Position numbers and translations under genes: made by a program | The notes under the pieces: generated by a model | Told to the model about the DNA's origin: nothing | What the model saw: only the letters and a program-made list of their open reading frames with translations | Database searches by the model: none | Sequence record: PP418985.1 | DNA: 64,000 bases | Origin: Escherichia phage UPWr_E1 | Reading direction: 5' to 3' (one strand) | Part shown: one piece after another, positions 9,155 through 64,000 of the stretch | Position numbering within the stretch: the stretch's first letter is position 1 | How the letters are laid out: every line of letters starts with the position of its first letter

Positions 9155-9186
9155 TTTGTTGATAACCGATTTTAATTGGTTTATTT

Positions 9187-9212: not shown

Positions 9213-9217
9213 ATATC

Positions 9218-9454
9218 TTAAAAATCCTCTTCTGGCTCTTCTTCTGGCTCGTTGTCCGCTTCCAATTGCTTACGGCGTCCAGCGATGGCGTCACGGATCG
9301 AAATATCATCAGCAGGTTTCAATTCTGTTTCTTTCTTGCGCTTCTCATAATATGCCTCAAGTTCATTTAATCCCTCGATAGTATTACAAGAATAAATCTT
9401 ACTCATGAAACCATCAATAGCGGCCTCAACCAAAAAACGTTTAAAGCTAATCAT
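9218..9454 (-). CDS. uvsW.1: UvsW.1-like small protein
   Basis: 78 aa immediately downstream of uvsW (T4 UvsW.1 about 76 aa); acidic C-terminus. Confidence 0.6.
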   Translation of the reverse strand: MISFKRFLVEAAIDGFMSKIYSCNTIEGLNELEAYYEKRKKETELKPADDISIRDAIAGRRKQLEADNEPEEEPEEDF

Positions 9455-9498
9455 TTTTTAATCTCCGTAGAATAAAGGGGCATTAAAGCCCCTATTTA

Positions 9499-11001
9499 TT
9501 AAATCTCGATTGTTTTCGTGGCATATTCGAATCGATCGGTGTTGTAAATTTTTATTCTTTCAAGCGCGTGTTTAAGAGCATAATTAAGGTGGCTAAACTG
9601 TTTCTTAGCATTCTTGCTCTTTGTCTTAACCGCCAAATGATCGATAAGATCCCAAACGGTAGCAATATCCTTAGAACCATGTTTACGCAATGCACGACCG
9701 ATACTCTGACGAACGATAGTTGATTCCTTCACTGGATGACCGAAAATAACATGATGCAAGTTCTTGATGGAAACACCAGTAGAGAACACACCATAAGACG
9801 CAACACAAATGATCCCTGTTTCCCCTTCCGCTAATTTCTTAAATTCATCACGTTCTTCTGTCTTAACTCCACCGTCAATATAATAAACCTTGTCGTGTAC
9901 CTTCTGCAACGCATCATACATAAGTTTTCCGTGCTTAGTATTGCGGAACATCAGGAATACGTTTTCGCCCTTCTTAGCGAGTTTTAGCGCCAAATTGCAA
10001 GCAAACTTATTTCGTCGTGGGTTAGACGTAATATACTTGATCTCTTCCGCATATTCTCTCCCCTTAACCGCGCTACATTCCTCATCGGTATAACGAAGGA
10101 AAAGACAGTTAATTTTCAGTTTTGTCACTTGGCCTTCTTCCATCAGGCGGTCAATACTCACGATCTTAGAAATATCACCGAAAAGCCCGACATACTGCAT
10201 CATGTTAGCTTTCCCGTCACGAGGGGAACCAGTCATGCCGATCTTAAATTGGCAATGATCCATATCAGTAACGATGTTTAGCAGGTTTTTAGCAGTGGCC
10301 TTGTGACATTCATCAACAATCACCATCCCGAATTGTTTAAACCATTCACGAGGTTGTTTACATGCTGATTGCCACGTACTAACAACGATCAGGCGATCTC
10401 CTACATTCTTAGTAGTACCACTCATGATAGTATGAATTGCCTCATAAGGAAACTGGCGATAATCAACAAAATCATCACGCATTTGCAGCACTAGCGACGT
10501 GGTAGGAACGATGATCAGCACTTTCCCTTCGTAGTTCTCTAAGTACCAGCGAGACAACATACAAGCAATCGCAGATTTACCAGCGGACGTAGGCAAAACT
10601 AACATACGGCGTTTATGATGAATACCTTCAAAGACAGCCTTTGATTGATACCAATGCGGGGTGATCCTGTTAGCACCGGAATATAATTCTAAGTCGTTAC
10701 ACCATTTTGTAATTTCTTCTTCTGTAACCTGTTCTTTCTCGAATAAGCGAGGGTCTACCCATACGCTATAGCCCATATTTTTAGCGAATATTCCCACGGT
10801 TTTAGTTAGGCCGATTGGCAACTTTCCATTGTAATCTAAAAGACGAATACGCCCATCCCATCCGCCGTATTTTACTCGTTTTTGAAACCGTGCACCTTCA
10901 ACTTCAAAGCTAAAATAATCCCTCATTTCTAATAAAATTGAATCGCTACATTCAATTTGAACATGGGAGTAGTTCAGAAAGTGAATTTTAATATCTTGCA
11001 T
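9499..11001 (-). CDS. uvsW: UvsW RNA-DNA and DNA-DNA helicase (SF2)
   Basis: Strong match to T4 UvsW (M-DIKIHF start, PTSAGKS Walker A, DECH box, VWDLIDH). ATG at 11001 chosen over the track's GTG at 11016 by alignment to T4. Confidence 0.9.
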   Translation of the reverse strand: MQDIKIHFLNYSHVQIECSDSILLEMRDYFSFEVEGARFQKRVKYGGWDGRIRLLDYNGKLPIGLTKTVGIFAKNMGYSVWVDPRLFEKEQVTEEEITKWCNDLELYSGANRITPHWYQSKAVFEGIHHKRRMLVLPTSAGKSAIACMLSRWYLENYEGKVLIIVPTTSLVLQMRDDFVDYRQFPYEAIHTIMSGTTKNVGDRLIVVSTWQSACKQPREWFKQFGMVIVDECHKATAKNLLNIVTDMDHCQFKIGMTGSPRDGKANMMQYVGLFGDISKIVSIDRLMEEGQVTKLKINCLFLRYTDEECSAVKGREYAEEIKYITSNPRRNKFACNLALKLAKKGENVFLMFRNTKHGKLMYDALQKVHDKVYYIDGGVKTEERDEFKKLAEGETGIICVASYGVFSTGVSIKNLHHVIFGHPVKESTIVRQSIGRALRKHGSKDIATVWDLIDHLAVKTKSKNAKKQFSHLNYALKHALERIKIYNTDRFEYATKTIEI

Positions 11002-14463: not shown

Positions 14464-15696
14464 ATGGCATTTACAGTAGCACTAAAATCAAATAAAAAAT
14501 GTTTCCTTGCTGGCGATACATTTAAATTAACGGCTACATTAGCTGGGGTGGAAGATGGTCCGGTCCCATCAAATGTTACCTATGCATGGACTAAAAATGA
14601 TCAGCCAATTGAAAATGAATCAAATGTATTAACGGTCTCTAACGCAACAGCCGAGAGCGCCGGAAAATATAAAGTATCCGTTACTGACACAGACACACAA
14701 GAAGTGGTAGAATCTGCGGTTGTGTCAATGGCAGAAGCAGAATTAGTAGTTAAAATTAATCATCCATCTAGCTACGTCGCATTCGATGAGGCGGTAGAAT
14801 TAACAACTACGGTTTCATATTCAACCGGATTTGCACCGTCTAGCAATTACCAGTTGCATTATAAATGGGAACAAGATCAAACAAATTTAAACCATAGCGA
14901 AAGCACATTATCGATCAGCAACTTCGTCGATGACAACAATGGCGTTTATAAGGTTACTGTATGGGGCGAGTCAGAAACATCAGCGGACAGCGCCAGTGTT
15001 AAACTTGCAGCAATCTCTATATCTGTAGTTGAAGATGTACCACTGGCAAAAACCGTCGCAATGGGTAAACCGATCACACTACCTTATCGCACGATGGGTG
15101 TTTCTATCGGTGACACGTCAGGTCTTCCGGCATTATCAACTAAACAGTCATGGTATTTGCAGCGAGAAGGACAACCGCGCCCGACACTGATCGGGAGTGA
15201 GGTTGGGGAGGCATTGGAAGGGTTTTCTATCATGCCTAACGGCTATTTGCACAAAGAAGCTGCAACAATGGACGACACCGCTAACTTTTGGTGTATCGTA
15301 GAGTTGCTTCAAGAAATTGACGGGCAGCCAGTACCAATCGAAGAAAAAGGTAGCTCTCATTGCGCACTGGAAGTTGTAGAATCACTTCATAAGATGTTCC
15401 GGTATGTGCACCCGATCCCGTGGCGCAAAACTTCGTTTATCTATATTGGATGGTGGGTATTCGACGAGATCGTTAAATTCAATGAGGCAGGGTTAGAATG
15501 GAGAAACCGTGAAGTTTACGAGGATAGCAAATATGCAAGCGACATCGAGACGATCGCGGCAGCGGAAGAAAAATATAGTGATTGCACTTGCATGGAATCT
15601 CGCAATGGTTTCATGTATCAGTCCAAAGAGTTCCATAAACTGGACCGAGAGACATTAGAGCGTGTCCTGCGCATTCGTGAAACGCCTCCTGCTTAA
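14464..15696 (+). CDS. Second Hoc-like paralog (about 410 aa)
   Basis: C-terminus FRYVHPIPWRKTSF...GWWVFDEI...ESRNGF is homologous to the Hoc capsid-binding domain; Ig-like N-terminal modules. ATG 14464 preferred because the track start at 14425 lies inside a hairpin. Confidence 0.8.
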   Translation: MAFTVALKSNKKCFLAGDTFKLTATLAGVEDGPVPSNVTYAWTKNDQPIENESNVLTVSNATAESAGKYKVSVTDTDTQEVVESAVVSMAEAELVVKINHPSSYVAFDEAVELTTTVSYSTGFAPSSNYQLHYKWEQDQTNLNHSESTLSISNFVDDNNGVYKVTVWGESETSADSASVKLAAISISVVEDVPLAKTVAMGKPITLPYRTMGVSIGDTSGLPALSTKQSWYLQREGQPRPTLIGSEVGEALEGFSIMPNGYLHKEAATMDDTANFWCIVELLQEIDGQPVPIEEKGSSHCALEVVESLHKMFRYVHPIPWRKTSFIYIGWWVFDEIVKFNEAGLEWRNREVYEDSKYASDIETIAAAEEKYSDCTCMESRNGFMYQSKEFHKLDRETLERVLRIRETPPA

Positions 15697-50702: not shown

Positions 50703-52502
50703 TCACCCAAGATCAATACGGCTACCATCAATTTTAACTGTACCAGATGCAATATCTTTAACGCTTGCACCACAATTACGGGACCAGTCACCATTAACCT
50801 GATCGGATTTAGTGCCGTTGACGGTCATATTAAAATTACCCTCAACGGTTAAATCATAGTTACCTTTAATTGTCTCGGTAGTGTTACCCTCGATCATTAA
50901 TTCAGCATTACCCTTGACATTAGCCGTCAAATTAGCGTCAAGCTGTGCGATAACATCACCGACAACATGCATATTAGCTGTACCTTCAACGGTCTGATTA
51001 ACATTACCACGAATAAATTCAGTGACGTTACCATCAACGGTTTGCATCACATTACCCATATAATAAACTTGCGCGTCACCTTCAACAACAACTTGCAAAT
51101 TACCCTTAACGTTTACTTTCCGGCCTTGTTTAACGATCAGATAATCATCGCCTTCAATCTTTTCTACCCTCGTTCCGTCCGGTCTGGTTTCTTCAAATGT
51201 ACCAGAAGGATGTTTGCGATGATATCGCTCATGAGAAGGAGTATCATCAATCTCGATAATATGACCGCTCTCCGACTCGTACACATGGTTATAAGGATAC
51301 CTTGCAGAATACGAACTCTTAGGCTCTTTAAACATGATTCGTGTGTCTTGTGGGGTAAACGGTGCTTCTGGGTCTTCTTCTGCTCTCTGCGTCTTATAGG
51401 CAGCAATACGGGCATTTCTCAAACGTGCTCGCGGATCATCAGAAATTGATTCCTCTTTCTTTGGAGCAATTACGCCATATGATTCTAAGTTACCAGTAAG
51501 AATAATTTTAGAAACACGGCTTGACCGTCCTGGAGTTTGGTTAGCCCATACCGATTGACGTAATCCATCATAGGCTTGTTTCCATTCTTCCGCCAGCATT
51601 GCAGCAAGACTATTCTTAAATTTACCCAATCCACCAACACCCATTTGAAACGCCATATTTTCTAATGCCATACGACGAGAAGCATTACACTTATTATAGA
51701 CAGGTGCAATTCGTGGATGTTTGCGCATATCACGACGAGTCTTTTCTATATCGTCAGCAAATACTTTACTAACTTCTTCGGCGGTAAGTCTTCCGTTTGT
51801 AACTTCACGCCCTACCAGCTTAGAAAGTTCATTATTGATAATACCAAGATCACTGGTTTTCTTATAAATGATCAAATGCCCGATGCCTATTGTCGGATAT
51901 CCTTCTGAATCAAGATACCATTTCTCGCGATATCCCTCATCGCCCCGCAGCATTTTTTCTATTGTATATTCTGGGTTATCATCAACCGGAATTTGGTCTA
52001 ATGGCTCGTCGTCTGGATTTACTGCAACTCCAGTGTTTTCATCTCGAATATAGACACTATCAGGTTTTGTTGTTTGTCCGGTTTCTGGGTTAATACCGCC
52101 ACGAGCAAGAATATTAACATCATTACCAATATAACGAGGATATGCACCAGAAGGGTCGCAAAACCCTTCTGTAGTGAGTGGTTTCTCTGTATATTGTCCG
52201 GCAATAGTGCCAAGAATAACGCAGTTTAAATAACGTTCATCTAAAGCCAAACCAAACACCATTGAACCTTCAACAATACCAGTAGGGCTTTGACCTATAC
52301 CGGAGATCGCCGCGCTTGTAATATCTTGCACTGGCGTAATCCATAATAGATCTTCGGTTGGAAGACCTTGAATGTCACCGTGTGCGGATAGCGAAGGATG
52401 TATACCATGAATCCTAACCTGAACTCGGCCTAACATTAATGGGTCTTCCCTGTTTTCTACAATTCCGGTAAACCATTTAACGGAGTTATTAAACATTAGC
52501 AT
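50703..52502 (-). CDS. 5: Baseplate hub + tail lysozyme (cell-puncturing device) gp5
   Basis: 599 aa (T4 gp5 575 aa); T4-lysozyme-like segment (YLDSEGYPTIGIGHLI), C-terminal VxGxxxxx repeats typical of the gp5 beta-helix. Confidence 0.9.
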   Translation of the reverse strand: MLMFNNSVKWFTGIVENREDPLMLGRVQVRIHGIHPSLSAHGDIQGLPTEDLLWITPVQDITSAAISGIGQSPTGIVEGSMVFGLALDERYLNCVILGTIAGQYTEKPLTTEGFCDPSGAYPRYIGNDVNILARGGINPETGQTTKPDSVYIRDENTGVAVNPDDEPLDQIPVDDNPEYTIEKMLRGDEGYREKWYLDSEGYPTIGIGHLIIYKKTSDLGIINNELSKLVGREVTNGRLTAEEVSKVFADDIEKTRRDMRKHPRIAPVYNKCNASRRMALENMAFQMGVGGLGKFKNSLAAMLAEEWKQAYDGLRQSVWANQTPGRSSRVSKIILTGNLESYGVIAPKKEESISDDPRARLRNARIAAYKTQRAEEDPEAPFTPQDTRIMFKEPKSSYSARYPYNHVYESESGHIIEIDDTPSHERYHRKHPSGTFEETRPDGTRVEKIEGDDYLIVKQGRKVNVKGNLQVVVEGDAQVYYMGNVMQTVDGNVTEFIRGNVNQTVEGTANMHVVGDVIAQLDANLTANVKGNAELMIEGNTTETIKGNYDLTVEGNFNMTVNGTKSDQVNGDWSRNCGASVKDIASGTVKIDGSRIDLG

Positions 52503-56990: not shown

Positions 56991-57027
56991 GCACATATCG
57001 AAACGAAACACACTTAGGAGAATCAAA

Positions 57028-57405
57028 ATGATGATGATGTTTAAAGATAAATTCGAATGTCACTACACCCGTAACTTTGACTTAGTATCCCGCTACTACA
57101 TTCATAAAGAAACTGGAACGCAAGTAGTTCTTGAATCTCACAGCGAAGTAGGATTCGATTCAACAAAAGTAGCAATTAGTGCTCGCTTCTGGGATAACGG
57201 CAAATTTGCTTATATCGCTTGGAACGACGACGAAAATGTAATTACAGTAGCTTTCGGTGATGACTACTACACTAAAAAGACTTTCGATAGTAAGCCATCA
57301 AATGAATACCTGAAAGCGTATGTGCAGCACATGTTCCAACGTGTTCTGACCGGAATGGAAATCAATGTCATGAAAGACATTGTAGACGAAGTAAAATATT
57401 CTTAA
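57028..57405 (+). CDS. Hypothetical early protein (125 aa)
   Basis: ATG run (MMMMFKDKF) preceded by AGGAG; the track ORF starts earlier at 56959 inside the promoter. Confidence 0.55.
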   Translation: MMMMFKDKFECHYTRNFDLVSRYYIHKETGTQVVLESHSEVGFDSTKVAISARFWDNGKFAYIAWNDDENVITVAFGDDYYTKKTFDSKPSNEYLKAYVQHMFQRVLTGMEINVMKDIVDEVKYS

Positions 57406-57411
57406 AAATAG

Positions 57412-57440
57412 TTGACAACATGAAACGGGGGTAGTAAGAT
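57412..57440 (+). promoter_or_regulatory. Early sigma70-like promoter P2
   Basis: TTGACA, 17 nt, TAAGAT; leader ...aacgaaaGGAGAATCAAAATG. Confidence 0.55.
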
Positions 57441-57471
57441 ACCCCCACAAACAAACGAAAGGAGAATCAAA

Positions 57472-57630
57472 ATGAAATTTATCGGTAAAACTTTTATGTT
57501 CGTAGCTGGTACTCTGTTTACTGCAACTCTGTTAGCTGGTGGCTTAGATATCTTTACTGCCTTTGAAACTTTCGGGTATACTGTAGCATCGGGTGCTCTC
57601 TTCGGATTGGGTTTAGCGATTAGCAAATAA
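57472..57630 (+). CDS. Small membrane peptide (52 aa)
   Basis: GGAGAAT Shine-Dalgarno; hydrophobic Gly/Ala/Thr/Leu-rich sequence. Confidence 0.5.
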   Translation: MKFIGKTFMFVAGTLFTATLLAGGLDIFTAFETFGYTVASGALFGLGLAISK

Positions 57631-57639
57631 GGTGATAAT

Positions 57640-57843
57640 ATGGAATTGGATATGGTTAAAGCAAAATTTATGGGTAAGGATAAGAGCGGTAAAACATTTG
57701 TTATTAATAGAACATTGTTTCGCTCTGACCTTAAGTGGGTAACACAACAATTTGCGGAAGTCAACGAGGCAGTTGTGACATGCTTTGTTGATGATAAAAA
57801 AGTTTTTGAAATTGATCGTCGTGGGGTGTCTAATGATCACTAA
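57640..57843 (+). CDS. Hypothetical small protein (67 aa)
   Basis: ORF in the early operon; soluble. Confidence 0.45.
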   Translation: MELDMVKAKFMGKDKSGKTFVINRTLFRSDLKWVTQQFAEVNEAVVTCFVDDKKVFEIDRRGVSNDH

Positions 57844-58030
57844 ACTGTTTAGCAATACTTTGTTTATGATTGCATTTGTTTTCTTTCTGTGTCTGATGAT
57901 CGGTGTTGTTACAGTAGGTAGCTATTCCGGTGTTACCTTAGATGATTTTTGCAAACTTGTTTTGATCTCGTTTATACCTAGTATTCTGCTCGCTTTATGT
58001 GGTGCTTTTAAATGGCTTTGTACGCTATGA
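57833..58030 (+). CDS. Small membrane protein (65 aa)
   Basis: ATG at 57833 overlapping the upstream stop; two hydrophobic segments. Confidence 0.45.
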   Translation: MITKLFSNTLFMIAFVFFLCLMIGVVTVGSYSGVTLDDFCKLVLISFIPSILLALCGAFKWLCTL

Positions 58031-58133
58031 ACGAAATAGAACGAATGATGTTGATAGGTGGACCTGAGTTCACTAAATTTGATGCAATTCTTATTGCGTT
58101 TGGTTTTCTTATGATCTTTTGTATGGTGGCGCT

Positions 58134-58358
58134 ATGAGTAGTATAAAATATTTCGCTTTCTTGTGCTTTATGATGTTCTTTACATTCTTAGCATGTGTTT
58201 TCTTTACCTGGCTTGCTCATGTTGATAATGCAACCGGACCGTTTTACTTCTTCTGTGTATTGTCTGTGTTGACTGGTGCTTTTGTTACGTGGATGATTCG
58301 AGATTGTTACGGAATGTATAAGTTTGAAAAGACTCGACCGAAATGGGGCAAACGATGA
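58134..58358 (+). CDS. Small membrane protein (74 aa)
   Basis: ATG 58134; two predicted transmembrane segments. Confidence 0.45.
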   Translation: MSSIKYFAFLCFMMFFTFLACVFFTWLAHVDNATGPFYFFCVLSVLTGAFVTWMIRDCYGMYKFEKTRPKWGKR

Positions 58359-58537
58359 AATTATTTGCGTGGCTAATTATTTTAAATGTAATTGTTAAGA
58401 CCTTTCTCGCTGGTCTGATGATGGCGCATAGCACCGAACCAGAAGAAGCATTAACGTATTTTGTTGCTTATGTGTTGGGATTCTTGCTTACTGCGTGGAT
58501 GTGTGATGAATATCGAAGAATTGAGGTAAAACCATGA
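58355..58537 (+). CDS. Small membrane protein (60 aa)
   Basis: ATGA-coupled to the upstream ORF; hydrophobic. Confidence 0.45.
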   Translation: MKLFAWLIILNVIVKTFLAGLMMAHSTEPEEALTYFVAYVLGFLLTAWMCDEYRRIEVKP

Positions 58538-58752
58538 AAATGACTTTTTATATCTTAGCAAGTATCATGCTTGTGATCTCTTCTGCACTATTTGCATTTC
58601 TTACCGTCTGGGGGATCTGTACTGATGCGAAGCCGTGGGATATCGTAGAAAATGCGGTTATGTTCCTGATTAGTATCATGTGTCTTTTTGATGCCTTTGA
58701 CTCTATAAAAGAAGAAGATCAAAAACGTCGCGAGAGAAAGCGATATAAATAA
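58534..58752 (+). CDS. Small membrane protein (72 aa)
   Basis: ATGA-coupled; hydrophobic N-terminal half, basic tail. Confidence 0.45.
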   Translation: MKMTFYILASIMLVISSALFAFLTVWGICTDAKPWDIVENAVMFLISIMCLFDAFDSIKEEDQKRRERKRYK

Positions 58753-58902
58753 TAGTGAACTAAAGACAGCGCGGTTAGAATGATTTGGACGTCACCTAGC
58801 CGCATTTATTACAGCGTATGGGATTGATCCGGTATGCTAAAGCATTCACTTGCTAGGCCGCTAGCAGGTTGGAGACAAGGAAGATTCGCTACCTTCCCTA
58901 TA

Positions 58903-58928
58903 AGCCACTCTTCGGAGTGGCTTTTTTA
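58903..58928 (+). terminator. Rho-independent terminator
   Basis: agccactc-ttcg-gagtggct hairpin followed by ttttt. Confidence 0.65.
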
Positions 58929-58954
58929 TTGCCTAAAATTTTTTAAAAAAGTTG

Positions 58955-58983
58955 TTGACTCCAGGTCCAGCCTATAGCATAAT
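58955..58983 (+). promoter_or_regulatory. Early sigma70-like promoter P3 with conserved leader
   Basis: TTGACT, 17 nt, CATAAT; leader catcgaaacgaaacacac...GGAGAATCAAAttATG. Confidence 0.6.
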
Positions 58984-59029
58984 ACACACATCGAAACGAA
59001 ACACACTTTCTTAAACGGAGAATCAAATT

Positions 59030-59215
59030 ATGGCACGTCGCATCACTAAAGCACTGAAAGCAGTAAGCAAAGAAAACGTAGTAGCTATTCTGGTAATCTG
59101 GGGTTATAACGAAGAATCCGCTAAACAGAAAGTTGAAGCAGGGTTTGAGATGGCAGTAAAAGCAATGCCGAATGATGACTCTGTAGGGCTGGCAAATTAT
59201 ATCGCATATTTCTGA
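59030..59215 (+). CDS. Hypothetical small protein (61 aa)
   Basis: ORF behind P3 and its leader. Confidence 0.5.
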   Translation: MARRITKALKAVSKENVVAILVIWGYNEESAKQKVEAGFEMAVKAMPNDDSVGLANYIAYF

Positions 59216-59224
59216 TAAAAAGTG

Positions 59225-59254
59225 TTGACAGGGGAGGATAAACTCCCCTACAAT
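59225..59254 (+). promoter_or_regulatory. Early sigma70-like promoter P4
   Basis: TTGACA, 18 nt, TACAAT; leader ...caacgaaacGGGAGAATCAAAATG. Confidence 0.55.
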
Positions 59255-59283
59255 ACAACCATCAACGAAACGGGAGAATCAAA

Positions 59284-59505
59284 ATGATTAACTTTAAAGA
59301 CGCAGCAAAAGAAATTATCGACTTTGAGCGCGAACTGTTTGAAATGGAACCTAATATGAGTAAACTGGAACTGGCTAACCAGATCTGGTGCTCTAAAATG
59401 AATCCAGCAGACCGCTTAGAAGTTGTGAACATCGTAGGTGAAGTGAAAGGTAGTGCATTAATGAAACTCCGCGCTTGTCACGCTTACATTGCTGATCAAC
59501 TGTGA
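59284..59505 (+). CDS. Hypothetical small protein (73 aa)
   Basis: ORF behind P4. Confidence 0.5.
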   Translation: MINFKDAAKEIIDFERELFEMEPNMSKLELANQIWCSKMNPADRLEVVNIVGEVKGSALMKLRACHAYIADQL

Positions 59506-59515
59506 GGGATATATC

Positions 59516-59710
59516 ATGGGAGATAAACCATTAGTACAACTAAGAGTACGCTATAACCAGATTTTAGCATTACTTAAAGCTGAGGGTGTAGATCCATCGG
59601 ACCGCGAGGCTGTAAAAGCGTGTCTATCTGATACGGTACAACCAAAGCATAATTTTGCTTGTTATATGTACTTTTACAGTAGGTTGAATAGACCGTTTGA
59701 GTTTGAATAA
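59516..59710 (+). CDS. Hypothetical small protein (64 aa)
   Basis: ATG at 59516 with GAGGGA Shine-Dalgarno. Confidence 0.45.
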   Translation: MGDKPLVQLRVRYNQILALLKAEGVDPSDREAVKACLSDTVQPKHNFACYMYFYSRLNRPFEFE

Positions 59711-59732
59711 CGTTAAGTGTTGAGGTGATACT

Positions 59733-59933
59733 ATGGATATTAAAGAGCAACTTGTATTAGTTCGAGAATCGGCTAAAGACCACGGCATGAGCGAAGAATT
59801 TGTTGAATGGTTTATTGATAACAAATTCAATCCAAGCCCAAATTCGACTTTTAACTATTTGGCTATGTCCATTATGTGGGAAGGTTGGAAAGGCGCGGTA
59901 GAAACTGCCTTAAAAATTATGAAAAAAGACTAA
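59733..59933 (+). CDS. Hypothetical small protein (66 aa)
   Basis: ORF with GAGGTGA Shine-Dalgarno. Confidence 0.45.
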   Translation: MDIKEQLVLVRESAKDHGMSEEFVEWFIDNKFNPSPNSTFNYLAMSIMWEGWKGAVETALKIMKKD

Positions 59934-59940
59934 AAAGTTG

Positions 59941-59969
59941 TTGACACGCGAGAGGGTGTATAGCATAAT
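59941..59969 (+). promoter_or_regulatory. Early sigma70-like promoter P5 with conserved leader
   Basis: TTGACA, 17 nt, CATAAT; leader catcgaaacgaaacacac..AGGAGtATCAAAAATG. Confidence 0.6.
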
Positions 59970-60007
59970 ACACCCATCGAAACGAAACACACTAAGGAGT
60001 ATCAAAA

Positions 60008-60334
60008 ATGAAACCAGTATCTGTTAAAGTTATCTTCTCTGAATCTTCTGTATTCGCTAACGCAAACGAAGTATTCCACTTCGAAGACTTCGAGCGTAAA
60101 GCACAGGACGCGGCAGCAAAAGCCTATGAAAGCGAATATGACAAAACTCAAATCGAGGTTACTTTCGAAAACGGCACTACTTACGCTTGCCGCCTTGACC
60201 TGGGTGATCGTCTGTCTGGCTTCCGTCACCATGTAGAGAAGACAATCGCTTTCTCTAAAACCGAAAAAGGAAAACACTACTTTTCTGTATTCGGTACTGA
60301 AAATCTGGATTTCTTGAAAACTGTTTCTTTCTAA
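60008..60334 (+). CDS. Hypothetical protein (108 aa)
   Basis: ORF behind P5. Confidence 0.5.
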   Translation: MKPVSVKVIFSESSVFANANEVFHFEDFERKAQDAAAKAYESEYDKTQIEVTFENGTTYACRLDLGDRLSGFRHHVEKTIAFSKTEKGKHYFSVFGTENLDFLKTVSF

Positions 60335-60342
60335 GGTACAAT

Positions 60343-60525
60343 ATGAAAAAGATTAATTGGTTAGCGAACATAGGCGCGGTATGCGCCTTTAACATCCTCG
60401 GATGGATAATGTTACATTTTGATGAGCGAGTTTCAAAATGTGACGGTGCATTAATTCTCGGATCGGCTAGCATATTCATTATGCTGTATGCAATTGCTGT
60501 TGACTTAAGCCGCGAGGATTGTTAA
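60343..60525 (+). CDS. Small membrane protein (60 aa)
   Basis: Hydrophobic ORF. Confidence 0.4.
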   Translation: MKKINWLANIGAVCAFNILGWIMLHFDERVSKCDGALILGSASIFIMLYAIAVDLSREDC

Positions 60526-60526
60526 T

Positions 60527-60724
60527 ATGACGATCAAGAATATGTTTTTCAACTTCGTAGGTGCTTCCATTCTTTCAATGCTATATCTTGTGATTGTATG
60601 GATGGGCGACTATGAATTAACTAACGATGAAAATCTGACAGTGTTTACTGTCTTGACGATGATCATTTACACTGTCTTTCTTGTCTTGGATTTTATTGTG
60701 TTTCTTTACAAAACGGTGACTTGA
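60527..60724 (+). CDS. Small membrane protein (65 aa)
   Basis: Hydrophobic ORF; two predicted transmembrane segments. Confidence 0.4.
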   Translation: MTIKNMFFNFVGASILSMLYLVIVWMGDYELTNDENLTVFTVLTMIIYTVFLVLDFIVFLYKTVT

Positions 60725-60921
60725 TGACGATTAGGAAAAATGATATTGGTTTTGTTGCGGGTATCGCTAGCGTCTTTACTGTTGTTATTTTGCTAATGCT
60801 TTTACCCGGTGTATTCTCTGACCAGATTGAATTGTATATAGCTTTTATCTGTTGCATTTATACTTGGTTTGCAATGTTTGTGATTAGTCTAATTATGCAA
60901 TTCGTAGTTAACAAATTTTAA
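60721..60921 (+). CDS. Small membrane protein (66 aa)
   Basis: Hydrophobic ORF; ATGA coupling to the upstream ORF. Confidence 0.4.
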   Translation: MMTIRKNDIGFVAGIASVFTVVILLMLLPGVFSDQIELYIAFICCIYTWFAMFVISLIMQFVVNKF

Positions 60922-60942
60922 ATTTAATGTGAGGATTATATT

Positions 60943-61263
60943 ATGAGCAAACTGTTTGAAACTCCGCGTGAAATTCTGATTGACAAGCTGAAAGAACGTG
61001 GTTTTAAAATTAAAGATGCAACAAAATACAGCCGAATTGATGAAATTAAGTTGCATTCTCTTGATGAACTGGTAGAATATGTTGCGGCAGTTGCTGATCC
61101 GCAGTTTGATGTGATTGTAGGTGACGTTGAATATCTCGATAATGTATATTCATTCTTCACTTATGGTAAAATTGTGTCTGTGAAAATTTCATTCTGTGAA
61201 AATGTGGAGGTGCTTGCTAGTGAACCAGAAGAACCAACTGACAACGGTCCTACGGCAGCGTAA
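60943..61263 (+). CDS. Hypothetical protein (106 aa)
   Basis: ORF with GAGGA Shine-Dalgarno. Confidence 0.5.
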   Translation: MSKLFETPREILIDKLKERGFKIKDATKYSRIDEIKLHSLDELVEYVAAVADPQFDVIVGDVEYLDNVYSFFTYGKIVSVKISFCENVEVLASEPEEPTDNGPTAA

Positions 61264-61534
61264 CAAGGAAGACCGCCTGATTTATTCGCTGGCGGTTATC
61301 CTTGAAAAAGAATTGCCGGATCTTGAGGTAGTTTTTACTGACCGACCAGTCGGCCAACGTTACGGAGGATATGACAGCCTAGTTTATCCTTCATATAGCC
61401 TTGAAATGTGGTTAGAAGATTTTAAAAATCTGGCTGATACATCTAAACCGCTTTATTTGTGGGATGTTGAGTATAATTGCGATCCTAACTGGCCTGGTAT
61501 TAATGTTTATGCGTCTATGACTTTAAAGGTGTGA
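61202..61534 (+). CDS. Hypothetical protein; start ambiguous (ATG 61202 or GTG near 61220)
   Basis: ORF overlapping the 3' end of the previous gene in another frame. Confidence 0.35.
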   Translation: MWRCLLVNQKNQLTTVLRQRNKEDRLIYSLAVILEKELPDLEVVFTDRPVGQRYGGYDSLVYPSYSLEMWLEDFKNLADTSKPLYLWDVEYNCDPNWPGINVYASMTLKV

Positions 61535-61536
61535 TA

Positions 61537-61695
61537 ATGGTTGAACAAATGTTAACTTCAATGGTAATGGCTTTCTGTATGGTTGTTGTTATGATTGCAA
61601 TGATCCCTAAAGAGAGAATGAATCTGCTTGTCGCTGTCTGTATGGGCGTTGTTTGTGGATGGTTTGGGATCGCGCTAGAACAAGCTCTGCGTTGA
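61537..61695 (+). CDS. Small membrane peptide (52 aa)
   Basis: ATG with upstream GGTG; hydrophobic; under 60 aa so absent from the ORF track. Confidence 0.4.
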   Translation: MVEQMLTSMVMAFCMVVVMIAMIPKERMNLLVAVCMGVVCGWFGIALEQALR

Positions 61696-61756
61696 TTAAC
61701 AATGCGGGTAGTACATTCCACTACCCGCACTAATTTATCTCACTGGAGGATTTTCT

Positions 61757-61945
61757 ATGGCGTTTTATCTATGGTTGCTTATAGTATGCTTTGTAATGGG
61801 TTTATGCTTCTATACTGGCGTATTCTGTTTTGTCGCCTGGATAGACGGCGGATTCTCTAATATCATTTTGCTTGCCGGATCAATTGCCTCGTTTCTGTTG
61901 ATATGGCTTTTTTCTTATTTGTTTGGTGAATGGGGTTTATTATGA
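61757..61945 (+). CDS. Small membrane protein (62 aa)
   Basis: Two hydrophobic segments. Confidence 0.45.
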   Translation: MAFYLWLLIVCFVMGLCFYTGVFCFVAWIDGGFSNIILLAGSIASFLLIWLFSYLFGEWGLL

Positions 61946-62121
61946 ACAAATATATGTTTTGGGCGACCCTTGCCTATGTTGTGATTGCGGTAGTCTGGGG
62001 ATTCTGTGTTATTGTCGCTTCTCTGATCTGGTGGGAATCACTTGGCGCGGGTTGTCTTATTAGCGGCGCATCATGTCTTATCACTGGCGTGATTGTTGGT
62101 TTTCTTATTTGGGAGGATTGA
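61942..62121 (+). CDS. Small membrane protein (about 60 aa)
   Basis: ATG 61942; ATGA coupling; hydrophobic. Confidence 0.45.
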   Translation: MNKYMFWATLAYVVIAVVWGFCVIVASLIWWESLGAGCLISGASCLITGVIVGFLIWED

Positions 62122-62123
62122 CA

Positions 62124-62339
62124 ATGGTTTTCTTCGGTCTTATTATAATGGTGCTTAATGTCATTTGTGGCGTTGCTATGTTAGCTATGGCCTTTACTGT
62201 TCCTATGTCTGTTGACAGCGCCGCATCCGTAGGTGTGTTGGGAATTGTAAACCTGTTTACTGCCCTAGCATGTTGGATCACCGGACGCGATGAGGTAATG
62301 TATTACTTTTATAAACGTAAACAGAGAAAAGGAAAATAA
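62124..62339 (+). CDS. Small membrane protein (about 71 aa)
   Basis: ATG 62124 with GGGAGGA Shine-Dalgarno; hydrophobic, basic C-terminus. Confidence 0.45.
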   Translation: MVFFGLIIMVLNVICGVAMLAMAFTVPMSVDSAASVGVLGIVNLFTALACWITGRDEVMYYFYKRKQRKGK

Positions 62340-62340
62340 T

Positions 62341-62532
62341 ATGAGATTTGCATTTGGTTTTACCGTGATGTTGATTATTGCTCTGAGTATGTGTACCGGA
62401 ATGCTTGTATTTGGTCTTGCAAACGGGTTTAGCATTTATAATAATCAGTGGGTTGATTGGGGAATGGTTGTCGTTAATGCGATCCTGATTGGTGCTAATA
62501 CAAGAACTCTATGCAGGATCGCCGGAATCTAA
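62341..62532 (+). CDS. Small membrane protein (63 aa)
   Basis: Hydrophobic ORF directly upstream of the peptidase gene. Confidence 0.45.
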   Translation: MRFAFGFTVMLIIALSMCTGMLVFGLANGFSIYNNQWVDWGMVVVNAILIGANTRTLCRIAGI

Positions 62533-62560
62533 ATATTATCACTCACAAAGGGGGTGAATA

Positions 62561-62950
62561 ATGTTTAAATTATCTCAAAGAAGCAAAGATCGGCTTGTTG
62601 GTGTGCATCCTGATCTGGTAAAAGTCGTTCATCGTGCATTAGAACTGACTCCGGTCGATTTTGGTATTACAGAAGGTGTACGTAGTCTCGCAACGCAAAA
62701 GAAATATGTTGCGGAAGGTAAATCTAAGACTATGAAATCTCGTCATCTTCACGGTTTCGCGGTTGATGTTGTAGCGTATCCGAAAGATAAAGATACATGG
62801 AACATGAAATATTACCGCATGATCGCTGATGCATTTAAACAAGCTGGTCGAGAATTGGGTGTTCCTGTTGAGTGGGGCGGGGATTGGACTAGTTTTAAAG
62901 ATGGTCCTCATCTACAATTGCCACACAGCAAATACCCAGATCCAAAATAA
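62561..62950 (+). CDS. Peptidase M15-family (VanY / L-alanyl-D-glutamate peptidase-like) cell-wall hydrolase, putative endolysin
   Basis: Zn-ligand-type motifs SRHLHGFAVDV and GGDW...DGPHLQ typical of M15 peptidoglycan peptidases; 129 aa; GGGGG Shine-Dalgarno. Confidence 0.7.
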   Translation: MFKLSQRSKDRLVGVHPDLVKVVHRALELTPVDFGITEGVRSLATQKKYVAEGKSKTMKSRHLHGFAVDVVAYPKDKDTWNMKYYRMIADAFKQAGRELGVPVEWGGDWTSFKDGPHLQLPHSKYPDPK

Positions 62951-63006
62951 AATATTAACCATCAACGGGGAGACAATCTAAGGATCTCTCCCCGTTCACT
63001 GGAGAC

Positions 63007-63498
63007 TTGACAATGAATATTGATGTAAAATTAGAAAGTAAAGATTTGATTTATGCTGCATGTGTTTCTGCCGTAGATGGCATCATAGAACGCCGTAAGC
63101 GACGCAATTTTGCTGATGACCTAGATTCCATCGTCTCAATCAATTTAGGGCGTCAAACAGGGCATACAGACGCTACAATCAAGTTATATGACCATTATAC
63201 GCGAAAAGGATACAGTGTCTTTATCGTTTCGACAACGCGGGAACATGTCAAAACGATCCGAGATCGCGGTCGCGGTGAAAATGTAAATATTTCAAATGTA
63301 GATTGTACGTCGATCCGAACTTTCCTGAATCCTATTACATGGCGAGGTCGTCGGCTTGACAAAACAATCTTTATCCTAGATACTACCATGCGCGGATTTA
63401 CTGACAGCGTATTGCAGTTTTTAGAATTAAATCGACTTAGTGTTGGAAGGGGTAGTGTAGAAGACCAACCTATTTTCATTGGCTTAGGCATCAACTAA
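63007..63498 (+). CDS. Hypothetical protein (163 aa)
   Basis: ORF after a hairpin; basic, Arg-rich. Confidence 0.45.
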   Translation: MTMNIDVKLESKDLIYAACVSAVDGIIERRKRRNFADDLDSIVSINLGRQTGHTDATIKLYDHYTRKGYSVFIVSTTREHVKTIRDRGRGENVNISNVDCTSIRTFLNPITWRGRRLDKTIFILDTTMRGFTDSVLQFLELNRLSVGRGSVEDQPIFIGLGIN

Positions 63499-63633
63499 TG
63501 AAAAATAAAGATAGCGTAGCTCGTCGATTCCGTGCTACAATCAATAAGAATCGTAAAGTCCAACCTGATAAACTCTATGGGGTTTTGGTTGGAAAAGTTA
63601 ATGACGAACGTCCTGATCTATAAGAGGTGAATT

Positions 63634-64000
63634 ATGGAATTTAAAGCAATTCAAATCATGAAAGGTGAGCATAAAGGTACTATTATTGGTGGACATTTCG
63701 CGCCTATGATTCTGGTATCAGAACCGAAAGCACTGATCGGCGCTAAAGTAATTGTTAGTAAAACTTTCGCAGAAGACCATGTGATCACCGCAGAAGACGT
63801 AGATTCGCTGGCACTGCACACAACTAGCTTCCGTCCGGTGATTGTAGATAATGGTGCTCCTGTTGTCGAAGGTGGTCAGCACCTAAATGTTAACGTATTG
63901 TTACGAGAAATGTTACTTGACGCGGTTGAACATCCTGAGAAGTACCCGCAGCTTACAATTCGCGTTTCTGGTTACGCAGTGCGCTTCAATAGTCTGACTC
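63634..64000 (+). CDS. grcA: Autonomous glycyl-radical cofactor GrcA/YfiD-like protein (3' end beyond window)
   Basis: [12 protein letters not shown]...[23 protein letters not shown] is near-identical to the remembered C-terminus of E. coli GrcA, including the RVSGY glycyl-radical motif. Confidence 0.85.

What the first reader, a model, noticed from the sequence alone, without database searches (positions are those of the whole stretch)
61537..62950. Candidate lysis cassette: five small membrane proteins directly upstream of a peptidase-M15-type cell-wall hydrolase
The putative endolysin is an M15-family peptidase (SRHLHGFAVDV ... DGPHLQ) rather than a T4-lysozyme-type muramidase. It is preceded by five small hydrophobic ORFs (61537..62532), which could include holin-like or antiholin-like components. 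Endolysin class replacement in a T4-like backbone is notable.
Basis: partly seen in the sequence, partly recalled or inferred. Interest (0 to 1): 0.45.

Follow-up and report, generated by a model that had tools for sequence, protein, structure and literature searches.

The report
RB49-type endolysin beside orphan membrane genes
This is the already characterised cell-wall peptidase of RB49-like (Krischvirus) T4-type coliphages; the five tiny membrane-protein genes in front of it are real but lineage-specific genes that are probably expressed early, and they are probably not its holin, because these phages keep the normal T4 holin, antiholin and spanins elsewhere.

Summary
Five tightly packed ORFs of 52-71 aa, each with two predicted membrane helices (61537-62532), precede a 129-aa Peptidase_M15 protein (62561-62950).

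The window is a Krischvirus (RB49-like). The peptidase differs by one residue from EndoRB49, a biochemically characterised L-alanoyl-D-glutamate endolysin with solved structures, so the enzyme and the replacement of the T4 e lysozyme are already known.

The "lysis cassette" reading is not supported:
- All 58 sequenced relatives also carry the T4 holin gene t.
- RB49 also has rI and the pseT.3/pseT.2 spanins. Its only T4-lysozyme-like sequence is the gp5 domain.
- The five ORFs are under purifying selection, but they are orphans. They match no holin family, and their homologues occur only in Krischvirus-like genomes.
- They did not travel with the endolysin, and one of them (O2) is deleted in phage ELT4.
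- They are 5 of 14 small membrane ORFs in a 5-kb hyperplastic region.
- They lie upstream of a late-promoter octamer (TCTAAATA, 62528-62535) that is identical to RB49's annotated late promoter.

That octamer sits inside an invariant hairpin that buries the endolysin's ribosome-binding site and start codon. This repeats the control logic known for T4 gene e, and appears not to have been reported for these phages. It is inferred from sequence, not tested.

The parts
59941..59969 (+). PeSL-type early (sigma-70) promoter, TTGACA-17-CATAAT, with an upstream AAAAAGTTG and a downstream ACACCCATCGAAACGAAAC leader. It is the nearest convincing promoter upstream of the small ORFs, so it is the inferred start of their early transcription unit.
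   Evidence: repeat families D1-D4 shared with the promoters at 58955 and about 57000. The PeSL element is described in PMC2839356.
60343..60921 (+). Three further small two-helix membrane ORFs: A 60343-60525, B 60527-60724 and C 60724-60921. They belong to the same unit and show that the membrane ORFs are not confined to the endolysin's neighbourhood.
   Evidence: dN/dS 0.2-0.6. B is frameshifted in W115 and ELT4.
61537..61695 (+). O1, 52 aa, two predicted transmembrane helices. Orphan (PHROG 16035, unknown function).
   Evidence: dN/dS 0.15-0.37.
61703..61729 (+). GC-rich hairpin (10-bp stem) followed by TCACTGGAG. It is the first of two related stem-loop elements that bracket O2-O5 plus the endolysin. 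Its U-tract is weak, so it is probably a leaky terminator or an RNA-stability hairpin.
   Evidence: dG -19, z -3.1; stem conserved, loop variable.
61757..61945 (+). O2, 62 aa, two predicted transmembrane helices and almost no charged residues. It is dispensable: largely deleted in phage ELT4 and shortened in ECD7.
   Evidence: dN/dS 0.18-0.44.
61942..62121 (+). O3, 59 aa, two predicted transmembrane helices. Its start overlaps the O2 stop (ATGA).
62124..62339 (+). O4, 71 aa, two predicted transmembrane helices and a strongly basic C-terminal tail (YKRKQRKGK). It is the most conserved of the five and the only one with a holin-like overall shape. It has no homologue outside Krischvirus-like genomes.
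62341..62532 (+). O5, 63 aa, membrane protein. Its stop codon lies inside the late-promoter octamer.
62528..62535 (+). TCTAAATA, the predicted gp55-type late promoter of the endolysin gene. The predicted late transcript start is near 62541.
   Evidence: It is identical to the 'late RB49 promoter' annotated in NC_005066. It is one of only three T[ACG]TAAATA sites on this strand in 64 kb. It is invariant in 10 lineages. Promoter position -13..-6 follows PMC1524935.
62526..62571 (+). RNA hairpin in read-through transcripts. The 5' arm (62530-62544) overlaps the late promoter. The 3' arm (62552-62567) contains part of the SD (GGGGGTGA, 62550-62557) and the AUG (62561-62563).
   Evidence: dG -12.5 kcal/mol, z -4.75; an RNA starting at 62541 has dG -3.8, z +0.33; most stable of 44 gene starts; invariant.
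62561..62950 (+). Endolysin: a Zn-dependent L-alanoyl-D-glutamate peptidase (M15C), orthologue of EndoRB49. It has no signal peptide or transmembrane segment.
62964..62996 (+). GC-rich hairpin after the endolysin gene, again followed by TCACTGGAG (the SD of vs.8). It is the second copy of the bracketing stem-loop element.
   Evidence: (dG -21, z -3.7).

Best explanation
The window comes from an RB49-like (Krischvirus) T4-type coliphage. The gene at 62561-62950 is the phage's soluble, cytoplasmic endolysin. It is a zinc L-alanoyl-D-glutamate peptidase of subfamily M15C that cuts the peptide stem of peptidoglycan. It sits in the genomic slot that T4 uses for lysozyme e, upstream of vs.8, vs.6, regB, vs.1, vs, tk and rI. 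Lysis most likely works as in T4, with genes dispersed around the genome: holin T opens the inner membrane at a time set by antiholin RI, the peptidase passes through and degrades the wall, and the pseT.3/pseT.2 spanins disrupt the outer membrane.

Inferred step on expression control. The endolysin gene appears to be controlled like T4 gene e. Early transcripts reading through from upstream fold a hairpin that buries its ribosome-binding site and AUG. A late promoter (TCTAAATA) embedded in the 5' arm of that hairpin yields late transcripts that lack the arm and can be translated.

The five small ORFs. They are genuine genes for two-helix inner-membrane proteins, restricted to this lineage. They are 5 of 14 such genes scattered over a 5-kb hyperplastic region. 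They are inferred to be transcribed early from a PeSL-type promoter at 59941-59969 and to be translationally coupled. My committed reading is that they are accessory early membrane proteins acting on the host envelope, for example in superinfection exclusion or host take-over. They are not the holin or antiholin of this endolysin. Their exact function is not shown.
For: Identity of the enzyme (shown):
- It differs at one residue (A44/E44) from PDB 23ri_A (E 6e-87) and is 96% identical to 8q2g_A. It matches ChiX at 1.7e-37 and T5 endolysin at 9e-22.
- It hits Pfam M15_4 and PHROG 465.
- The SxHxxGxAxD and DxxH motifs and W109 are present, and there is no hydrophobic segment.

Dispersed T4-type lysis set (shown in relatives):
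- RB49 t matches Pfam Phage_holin_T at 4.5e-61 and rI matches Antiholin at 3.3e-23.
- The spanins match PHROG 812 and 739.
- t is present in 58 of the 58 genomes that carry the O1-O5 cluster.
- The only T4-lysozyme-like sequence is the gp5 domain.
- Published Krischvirus annotations list the same dispersed genes (PMC12533011).
- Synteny with the T4 e locus is shown.

Small ORFs:
- They are coding, with dN/dS 0.13-0.37.
- They have no Pfam, NCBIfam or PHROG holin match.
- An O4 sequence search of a 5.8-billion-protein database and an O4 profile search of 1.84 billion representative proteins found only relatives at 80% identity or more.
- There is no paralogy among the 14 ORFs (hhalign probability below 17%).
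- None occurs in the 79 loci holding the closest non-Krischvirus endolysins, where 0-1 small membrane ORF upstream is the norm.
- RB43 and phiP4-3 carry the M15 endolysin at the same locus without them.
- O2 is deleted in ELT4.

Regulation (inferred):
- The octamer equals RB49's annotated late promoter, with the flanks also similar, and the holin t has CCTAAATA upstream.
- The hairpin has z -4.75 and is lost in an RNA starting at 62541. It is the most stable of 44 gene starts.
- The 46-nt intergenic region is invariant although the flanking genes have dS 0.3-0.7.
- A divergent lineage refolds in another register that still buries the AUG (dG -18.2, z -5.4).
- Analogous designs are seen in T4 e (review PMC3014915), in RB49 rI, in RB43-type phages and in Bragavirus.
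- The only convincing early promoters on this strand are PeSL-type, and none lies between 59969 and the endolysin.
Against: - No transcript or protein data for this region were available. The late promoter, the hairpin's inhibitory effect and the early timing of O1-O5 are all inferences.
- An earlier HMM scan of RB49 predicted 17 late promoters and did not call this site (PMC1524935, supplement 5).
- The hairpin region is invariant, so it offers no covariation within Krischvirus.
- The O5 stop codon lies in the 5' arm, so terminating ribosomes could open the hairpin and couple endolysin translation to O5. The same geometry exists at T4 nudE-e, where inhibition was nevertheless demonstrated.
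- O4 has the overall features of a class II holin (71 aa, two transmembrane helices, basic C-tail).
- O2-O5 plus the endolysin are bracketed by two copies of a stem-loop element found nowhere else in the window or in the fetched RB49 sequence. This could mean they move or are regulated as a unit.
- The t, rI and spanin genes lie outside the 64-kb window, so their presence in this particular genome is inferred from 58 of 58 relatives.
Confidence: 0.8

Rival explanations
1. One reading: the five ORFs and the peptidase form a local lysis cassette, and one or more of the small membrane proteins act as holin, pinholin or antiholin for the M15 endolysin.
For: They lie directly next to the endolysin on the same strand, tightly packed. 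All have two transmembrane helices. O4 has a basic C-terminal tail and the size of a class II holin. The five-ORF-plus-endolysin order is kept in divergent lineages. The stem-loop repeats bracket O2-O5 plus the endolysin.
Against: - The T holin is present in all 58 relatives, and RB49 also carries the RI antiholin and the spanins.
- The endolysin is soluble with no SAR domain, so a pinholin would not release it.
- There is no holin-family match. The best hit was O1 against Phage_holin_5_2 at 14 bits, against a cutoff of 29; PHROGs and NCBIfam gave none either.
- The ORFs lie upstream of the late promoter.
- O2 is deleted in ELT4.
- They are not associated with the endolysin in RB43, Bragavirus or the 79 other loci.
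- Nine more small membrane ORFs of the same kind lie 1-5 kb away, not adjacent to the endolysin.
Confidence: 0.1
2. TCTAAATA and the hairpin are not an e-type switch. The octamer is a by-product of the O5 stop codon and AT-rich spacer. The stem-loop serves only translational coupling between O5 and the endolysin, or transcript stability. The endolysin is made from read-through transcripts.
For: The site was not called in the 2006 late-promoter prediction. The O5 stop overlaps the 5' arm. There is no covariation within Krischvirus. The hairpin is of moderate stability (-12.5 kcal/mol).
Against: - The octamer and its flanks match RB49's annotated late promoter, and t has CTAAATA as well.
- Such octamers are rare on this strand: 3 in 64 kb against roughly 10 expected from composition (for the counts; the expectation is my own estimate).
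- The region is invariant amid diverged flanks.
- The same promoter-inside-hairpin layout recurs, with different sequences, in T4 e, RB49 rI, RB43-type phages and Bragavirus.
- Early synthesis of a cytoplasmic endolysin would be harmless without the holin, but T4 nevertheless uses this control.
Confidence: 0.25
3. O2-O5 plus the endolysin form one mobile or co-regulated module bounded by two copies of a stem-loop element (ATTAAC..CGGGNAG-loop-CTNCCCG..TCACTGGAG). The module would have been inserted as a unit into the e slot by recombination of the PeSL type.
For: The element occurs exactly twice in the window, and in the fetched parts of the RB49 genome only at the corresponding two sites. It flanks 61741-62996, and the two stems differ by a compensatory pair. 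Shuffling of cassettes mediated by PeSL elements is documented in RB49 and phi1 (PMC2839356).
Against: - The search pattern was derived from these two copies, so its rarity is not an independent test.
- The elements lack the promoter half of a PeSL.
- Divergence (dS) is not uniform across the segment.
- The O2-O5 genes are absent next to every other relative of the endolysin.
- No genome lacking the whole segment was seen.
Confidence: 0.12

Closest known systems
EndoRB49 (RB49 gp102, NP_891673) and its relatives EndoT5, EndoRB43 and Serratia ChiX: M15C L-alanoyl-D-glutamate peptidases
   Same: The window protein differs from EndoRB49 at one residue (A44 in place of E44) and is 100% identical to the ELT4 protein. 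It has the same length, the same Zn-binding and catalytic motifs, the conserved W109, and no export signal.
   Different: Nothing of substance differs. The A44 variant is shared with ELT4, and ChiX also has Ala at that position.
Translational control of T4 lysozyme gene e (McPheeters et al. 1986, reviewed in PMC3014915)
   Same: The upstream ORF's stop codon, the late promoter(s), the SD and the AUG are packed into about 35 nt. The late promoter forms part of the 5' arm of a hairpin that pairs with the SD and AUG. Stability is similar (T4 -15.1 kcal/mol, z -3.8; here -12.5, z -4.75).
   Different: The controlled gene is a non-homologous enzyme. There is one promoter instead of two, with C at -12 (TCTAAATA). 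The leader sequence is not alignable to T4's. The review lists RB49, phi-1 and RB43 only as having 'no apparent gene e' and did not examine them. Nothing has been tested experimentally here.
The dispersed T4 lysis system: holin T, antiholin RI, spanins PseT.3/PseT.2 and endolysin E
   Same: Krischvirus keeps t next to the tail-fibre genes, rI next to tk, and pseT.3/pseT.2 next to pseT. Its endolysin sits in the e slot.
   Different: The endolysin is a peptidase and not a muramidase. No rIII gene was noticed in the annotation tables read (not specifically searched).
ORFans of the hyperplastic regions in T4-type phages, and their PeSL early promoter/stem-loop cassettes (Arbiol et al. 2010, PMC2839356)
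   Same: The five ORFs are small genes of unknown function, restricted to one lineage and variably present. They sit in a region punctuated by PeSL promoters at 57412, 58955, 59225 and 59941. T4 also has membrane ORFs (e.2, e.3, e.4) upstream of nudE-e.
   Different: The density of two-helix membrane proteins is unusually high here: 14 within 5.1 kb, with no detectable paralogy.
Class II holins and pinholins (for example phage 21 S21-68, 71 aa, two transmembrane helices; from my own knowledge of the family)
   Same: O4 has the same size, two transmembrane helices, a predicted N-in/C-in topology and a basic C-terminal tail.
   Different: There is no sequence or profile similarity. The partner endolysin has no SAR signal. 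The gene lies upstream of the late promoter. A T-type holin is present in the genome.

Membership tests
M15C L-alanoyl-D-glutamate peptidase endolysins (EndoT5/EndoRB49 type) | Significant match to the Peptidase_M15 (VanY-like) profile | tested here: met
   Pfam PF13539, E 4.4e-12, 46.8 bits against a cutoff of 25. PHROG 465 'endolysin', 1.7e-68.
M15C L-alanoyl-D-glutamate peptidase endolysins (EndoT5/EndoRB49 type) | Zn-ligand and catalytic motifs (SxHxxGxAxD ... DxxH) and the conserved active-site Trp | tested here: met
   S60-R-H62-L-H-G65-F-A67-V-D69, D114-G-P-H117 and W109 are read directly from the translation. W109 is discussed in PMC10487532.
M15C L-alanoyl-D-glutamate peptidase endolysins (EndoT5/EndoRB49 type) | [quoted passage not shown] | not testable with these tools
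   Shown for the RB49 orthologue, which differs by one residue (PMC8140593, PMC10487532). Not assayed for this exact variant.
Holins (any class) | At least one transmembrane helix, small size and a charged C-terminus | tested here: met
   All five ORFs have two hydrophobic segments, but only O4 has a strongly basic tail. These features are not specific to holins.
Holins (any class) | Homology to a described holin family | tested here: not met
   There is no Pfam, NCBIfam or PHROG holin hit above threshold. The O4 profile found nothing beyond its own cluster among 1.84 billion representative proteins.
Holins (any class) | Co-expression with the endolysin late in infection, and conserved linkage to it | tested here: not met
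   The ORFs lie upstream of the predicted late promoter, in a unit fed by an early PeSL promoter. They are absent beside the endolysin in RB43, Bragavirus and the 79 other loci. The timing is inferred, not measured.
Holins (any class) | Forms lethal membrane lesions that release the endolysin | not testable with these tools
   Requires inducible expression in E. coli.
T4 gene e-type translational switch (late promoter nested in a hairpin that sequesters the translation initiation region) | Stable stem-loop pairing the SD and/or AUG in the long (read-through) leader | tested here: met
   dG -12.5 kcal/mol, z -4.75, and 0 of 200 shuffles fold as well. It ranks first of 44 gene starts.
T4 gene e-type translational switch (late promoter nested in a hairpin that sequesters the translation initiation region) | A late promoter placed so that late transcripts lack the 5' arm | tested here: met
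   TCTAAATA at 62528-62535 equals RB49's annotated late promoter. The predicted +1 near 62541 leaves 4 nt of the 15-nt arm, and that RNA is unstructured. The promoter's activity itself was not tested.
T4 gene e-type translational switch (late promoter nested in a hairpin that sequesters the translation initiation region) | Early read-through transcripts exist and are poorly translated, while late transcripts are well translated | not testable with these tools
   Needs RNA 5'-end mapping and reporter or immunoblot time courses.
Krischvirus (RB49-like Straboviridae) | Nucleotide identity and gene order with RB49, Phi1 and JSE | tested here: met
   96-97% identity over 3.3 kb to 58 records, with the same gene order.

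The most novel reading that the evidence does not exclude
The O2-O5 operon, bracketed together with the endolysin by a two-copy stem-loop element, might encode a Krischvirus-specific hetero-oligomeric inner-membrane complex. Such a complex would tune lysis by the M15 peptidase, acting as an auxiliary holin, antiholin or lysis-timing device layered on T/RI, or it would couple superinfection exclusion to lysis. That would be a new family of small lysis regulators in a T4-type phage. Separately, the e-type promoter-in-hairpin switch may have been rebuilt independently on non-homologous endolysin genes in at least three T4-like genera.
Probability: 0.1. Interest if true: 0.55.

Novelty: already known. 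Interest (0 to 1): 0.2.

Why it matters
The RB49-type M15 endolysin has been purified, mutated and solved structurally, and Krischvirus genome papers already list a dispersed holin, endolysin and spanins. The useful outcomes are as follows.

1. A correction. Small membrane ORFs next to an endolysin in a T4-type hyperplastic region should not be annotated as holins by position alone.
2. A modest new observation. When T4-type phages swapped the e muramidase for an unrelated peptidase, the e-style safety device was kept or rebuilt: a late promoter nested in a hairpin that hides the ribosome-binding site. I saw this in Krischvirus, RB43-type phages and Bragavirus. This is directly testable and relevant to how lysis-gene expression is insulated from early read-through.
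3. A pointer to a dense set of 14 unrelated, selected, orphan two-helix membrane proteins whose functions are unknown.

Tried and rejected
- Holin homology. Pfam, PHROGs and NCBIfam scans of O1-O5 and A-C gave only sub-threshold noise.
- Distant homologues of O4. The word-indexed search of 5.8 billion proteins and the full HMMER profile search of 1.84 billion representatives found only relatives at 80% identity or more. IMG/VR gave one locus, which is ECD7.
- Paralogy or tandem duplication among the 14 small membrane ORFs. All-against-all hhalign gave a maximum probability of 16%, so this is rejected.
- Co-transfer with the endolysin. tblastn of O1-O5 against the 79 loci with the closest non-Krischvirus endolysins, plus RB43, phiP4-3, 9NA, a Klebsiella phage and a Cronobacter phage, gave no hits.
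- An internal sigma-70 promoter at 62118-62146 (11/12 match). It lacks the PeSL context, would start inside O4, and is not conserved in divergent lineages. I treat it as chance.
- A canonical TATAAATA upstream of the endolysin. There is none; only the C-variant is present.
- A second e-type lysozyme.
- Rfam on 57000-64000. Nothing was significant.
- The Mikoulinskaia 2018 and Desplats 2002 papers are not held in the library. I therefore could not check whether they mention the promoter or hairpin.
Full report
**What the window is**

A 3.3-kb stretch around the finding is 96-97% identical to 58 phage genomes, all Krischvirus (RB49, Phi1, JSE, ECD7, GEC-3S and others). The window runs antiparallel to the RB49 reference and corresponds to roughly 53.7-117.7 kb of NC_005066. 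Annotation of RB49, W115, ECD7 and ELT4 shows the same gene order as here. That order is dmd, a run of small ORFs, a 129-aa 'endolysin', vs.8, vs.6, nrdC.11, regB, vs.1, vs, tk.4, tk, rI.

**Checking the observation**

The five ORFs exist exactly as described. They are O1 61537-61695, O2 61757-61945, O3 61942-62121, O4 62124-62339 and O5 62341-62532.
- Each has a plausible Shine-Dalgarno sequence.
- Each has two hydrophobic segments on a Kyte-Doolittle scan.
- O2 to O5 are packed with overlaps or gaps of 1-2 nt.
- They are real genes. Metagenomic relatives in which O4 is only 80-87% identical keep the same five ORFs, the same sizes and the same order ahead of a Peptidase_M15_4 gene.
- Pairwise dN/dS against those relatives is 0.13-0.37, similar to the endolysin's own 0.14-0.18.

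The 129-aa protein carries the quoted motifs. It matches Pfam Peptidase_M15_4 (E 4.4e-12) and PHROG 465 'endolysin' (E 1.7e-68).

**The endolysin is a known enzyme**

- Against the PDB it differs at one residue (A44 for E44) from chain 23ri_A. It is near-identical to 8q2g_A ('peptidoglycan L-alanyl-D-glutamate endopeptidase'). More distant matches are Serratia ChiX (1.7e-37) and the T5 endolysin (9e-22).
- RB49 NP_891673, the orthologue, is EndoRB49. [quoted passage not shown]
- The protein has no hydrophobic segment, so it must accumulate in the cytoplasm and depend on a hole-forming holin.
- Relatives occur in 1,260 phage records. A rough neighbour-joining tree puts the Krischvirus enzyme nearer to the enzymes of siphoviruses and prophage-like contigs (62-66% identity) than to those of RB43-type phages (46%) or Bragavirus (54%). 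That is suggestive only; no support values were computed.

**Is there a separate e/t pair?**

The results are as follows.
- RB49 has t next to the tail-fibre genes (Pfam Phage_holin_T, 4.5e-61) and rI next to tk (Pfam Antiholin, 3.3e-23).
- RB49 has pseT.3 and pseT.2 next to pseT (PHROG 739 and 812, 'Rz-like spanin').
- The t gene is found in 58 phage records, and the small-ORF cluster is found in 58 with the same organism breakdown. I take these to be the same genomes.
That place is the lysozyme domain of the 599-aa gp5 baseplate protein at 50703-52502 on the minus strand.

So e is indeed replaced, while the rest of the T4 lysis machinery is intact and dispersed as in T4. The replacement is positional. 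In T4 the order is e.x ORFs, nudE, e, ipIII, ipII, denV, vs.8, vs.6, regB, vs.1, vs, tk, rI. In Bragavirus phiP4-3 the M15 gene sits between nudE and the vs.8/vs.6/denV/regB block. A 2010 review already lists RB49, phi-1 and RB43 as having 'no apparent gene e' (PMC3014915). A recent Krischvirus paper lists holin, endolysin and spanins at separate ORF numbers (PMC12533011).

**What the five small ORFs are**

- Each falls in its own small PHROG of unknown function.
- None reaches threshold against any Pfam or NCBIfam family, holin and Imm families included.
- For O4, the most conserved of the five, neither the 5.8-billion-protein search nor a profile search of 1.84 billion representatives found anything outside its own cluster at 80% identity or more.
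- blastn down to about 65-70% identity finds the cluster only in the 58 Krischvirus genomes.
- They are not special to the endolysin's neighbourhood. Between 57472 and 62532 there are 14 small ORFs with membrane helices: RB49p124, p122-p118, p112-p110 and p107-p103. Profile-profile comparison detects no paralogy among them (maximum probability 16%).
- They are not linked to the endolysin elsewhere. RB43, a Klebsiella phage and a Cronobacter relative have no membrane ORF directly upstream. phiP4-3 has none within 1.9 kb. None of the 79 IMG/VR loci with the closest endolysin relatives encodes a homologue of O1-O5. Those loci typically have zero or one small membrane ORF upstream, presumably their holin, and never five.
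- They are variably retained. O2 is almost entirely deleted in ELT4 and shortened in ECD7, and ORF B is frameshifted in W115 and ELT4.
- T4 itself has membrane ORFs of unknown function (e.2, e.3, e.4) upstream of nudE-e, unrelated in sequence.

**Transcription context**

On the + strand, four promoters share the PeSL signature described for RB49 and phi1: AAAAAGTTG, TTGACA, 17 nt, (C/T)A(T/C)AAT, then an ACACCCATCGAAACGAAAC leader, with the -10 element inside a G/C stem-loop. They lie at 57412, 58955, 59225 and 59941 (PMC2839356). None lies between 59969 and the endolysin.

The 11/12 sigma-70 match at 62118-62146 lacks that context, would initiate inside O4, and decays in divergent lineages. 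I treat it as chance.

The five ORFs therefore most likely belong to an early unit starting at 59941. It contains the LPD25 ORF, then A, B and C, then two soluble ORFs, then O1, a hairpin, and O2-O5. This step is inferred.

**The endolysin's own control region**

This part is the new observation.
- The octamer TCTAAATA lies 26 nt upstream of the AUG, at 62528-62535.
- It is identical to the feature annotated 'late RB49 promoter' upstream of gene 32 in NC_005066. The flanks also agree (TCTAAATAT[A/T]ATC).
- The RB49 holin t has CCTAAATA 42 nt upstream of its start.
- Structural late genes on the opposite strand use TATAAATA (9 sites). On the + strand only three T[ACG]TAAATA sites occur in 64 kb.
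- T4-type late promoters span positions -13 to -6 (PMC1524935). The late transcript should therefore start near 62541.
- The RNA around it folds into a hairpin. The 5' arm (62530-62544) overlaps the promoter. The 3' arm (62552-62567) contains part of the SD and the AUG. For this hairpin dG is -12.5 kcal/mol, z is -4.75, and none of 200 shuffles folds as well.
- An RNA beginning at 62541 is unstructured (dG -3.8, z +0.33).
- Among 44 same-strand gene starts in the 15-kb RB49 locus, this one has the most stable local fold.
- The 46-nt spacer is invariant in ten sequences whose flanking genes have dS 0.3-0.7.
- The divergent lineage carries a 1-nt deletion and an AAA-to-AGA change in codon 3. It folds into a longer hairpin in another register that still pairs the AUG (dG -18.2, z -5.4).

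This is the design established for T4 gene e. There, early read-through transcripts hide the ribosome-binding site, and late promoters inside the structure give translatable RNA (PMC3014915). T4's own leader gives dG -15.1 and z -3.8, and the nudE stop codon lies 2 nt before the 5' arm, the same geometry as O5 and the endolysin here.

Comparable layouts, with different sequences, occur in four other places.
- RB49 rI: CCCCAGAT, TATAAATA, then ATCTGGGGG.
- RB43, a Cronobacter phage and a Klebsiella phage: an anti-SD CCUCUU, then C(A/G)TAAATA, an inner terminator hairpin, and the AAGAGG SD, with z from -4.4 to -5.5.
- Bragavirus: AATAAATA followed by a 14-bp stem over the AUG, z -4.6.

A 2006 HMM scan of RB49 late promoters found the gene 32 and rI sites but not this one. 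The promoter call is therefore an inference that needs 5'-end mapping.

**Consequence for the finding**

The endolysin has its own late control element. The five membrane ORFs sit upstream of it on what reads as an early transcript. Together with the intact T/RI/spanin set, the lack of any holin homology, their absence beside related endolysins and the loss of O2 in a viable phage, this makes a holin or antiholin role unlikely (about 10%).

I commit to the reading that they are early, lineage-specific accessory inner-membrane proteins of the hyperplastic region. They plausibly act on the host envelope, for example in superinfection exclusion: no imm or sp homologue is annotated in the parts of RB49 I read. 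Their function is not shown.

**Residual oddities**

- O4 has a class II holin-like shape.
- Two related GC-rich stem-loops, each followed by TCACTGGAG, occur only at 61705-61727 and 62966-62994 in the window. In the fetched RB49 sequence the pattern occurs only at the corresponding sites; the upstream copy is mutated there. They bracket O2-O5 plus the endolysin. This could reflect a shared terminator or processing element, or an old cassette boundary. It slightly favours linkage but does not indicate function.

**Verdict**

The enzyme and the class replacement are already known. The 'lysis cassette' interpretation is not supported. The e-like promoter-in-hairpin switch on the replaced endolysin is a small, testable addition.

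Noticed in passing
window 58744-58931 (+): This is the only canonical late promoter (TATAAATA, 58744-58751) on the early-gene strand. It is followed by about 170 nt with no credible ORF and then a strong intrinsic terminator (58902-58923 plus a T-run). The stretch is highly structured (dG -62.6 kcal/mol, z -4.6). It is 94-97% conserved even in lineages whose neighbouring ORFs differ by 20-30%. It is a candidate late small RNA, with no Rfam match (best E-values 0.1-0.7).
   Followed up: partly
window 57412-57440, 58955-58983, 59225-59254, 59941-59969 (+), and leader repeats at about 57000: PeSL-type early promoter and stem-loop cassettes, as described for RB49 and phi1, recur through the region and delimit small gene cassettes.
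   Followed up: partly
window 57472-62532 (+): There are fourteen small ORFs (41-74 aa) with one or two predicted transmembrane helices in 5.1 kb. All are conserved in Krischvirus-like genomes. No paralogy is detectable among them, and none has a known function.
   Followed up: partly
window 61705-61727 and 62966-62994 (+): A two-copy stem-loop element (ATTAAC..CGGGNAG-loop-CTNCCCG..TCACTGGAG) brackets O2-O5 plus the endolysin. The two stems differ by a compensatory pair. In about 115 kb of fetched RB49 sequence the pattern occurs only at the corresponding sites.
   Followed up: partly
L008 (phage ELT4) 2781-2885; L007 (ECD7) 2711-2884; L002 (W115) and L008, ORF B: There are natural knock-outs. 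O2 is reduced to an 8-codon remnant in ELT4 and shortened in ECD7. ORF B carries a 1-nt indel in W115 and ELT4. These genes are therefore dispensable for plaque-forming phages.
   Followed up: yes
L001 (RB49) 14614-14690: The antiholin gene rI of RB49 has the same layout as the endolysin. A late promoter (TATAAATA) is nested in a hairpin (CCCCAGAU/AUCUGGGG, dG about -25 kcal/mol) that pairs the SD.
   Followed up: partly
window 62098-62136 (+): The O4 start region is also sequestered in a hairpin (dG -11.4 kcal/mol, second most stable of 44 gene starts) that spans the O3 stop codon. This suggests O4 translation is coupled to O3.
   Followed up: no
window 62690-62692 (codon 44 of the endolysin): There is Ala at position 44 where RB49 and both near-identical PDB chains (23ri, 8q2g) have Glu. 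The variant is shared with phage ELT4, and ChiX also has Ala at the aligned position.
   Followed up: no
window 60943-61263 and 61220-61534 (+): Two soluble ORFs (106 aa and 104 aa; the second starts with GTG) overlap by 44 nt. They are much more conserved (dN/dS 0.00-0.20; one near-identical pair gave 0.85 on 3 differing codons) than the surrounding membrane ORFs. Each is in its own PHROG of unknown function.
   Followed up: no
L019 (T4) 8653-9694: T4 e.2, e.3 and e.4, just upstream of nudE-e, are also predicted membrane proteins (1, 3 and 2 helices). They are unrelated in sequence to O1-O5. Membrane ORFs ahead of the endolysin slot may be a general feature of this hyperplastic region.
   Followed up: no
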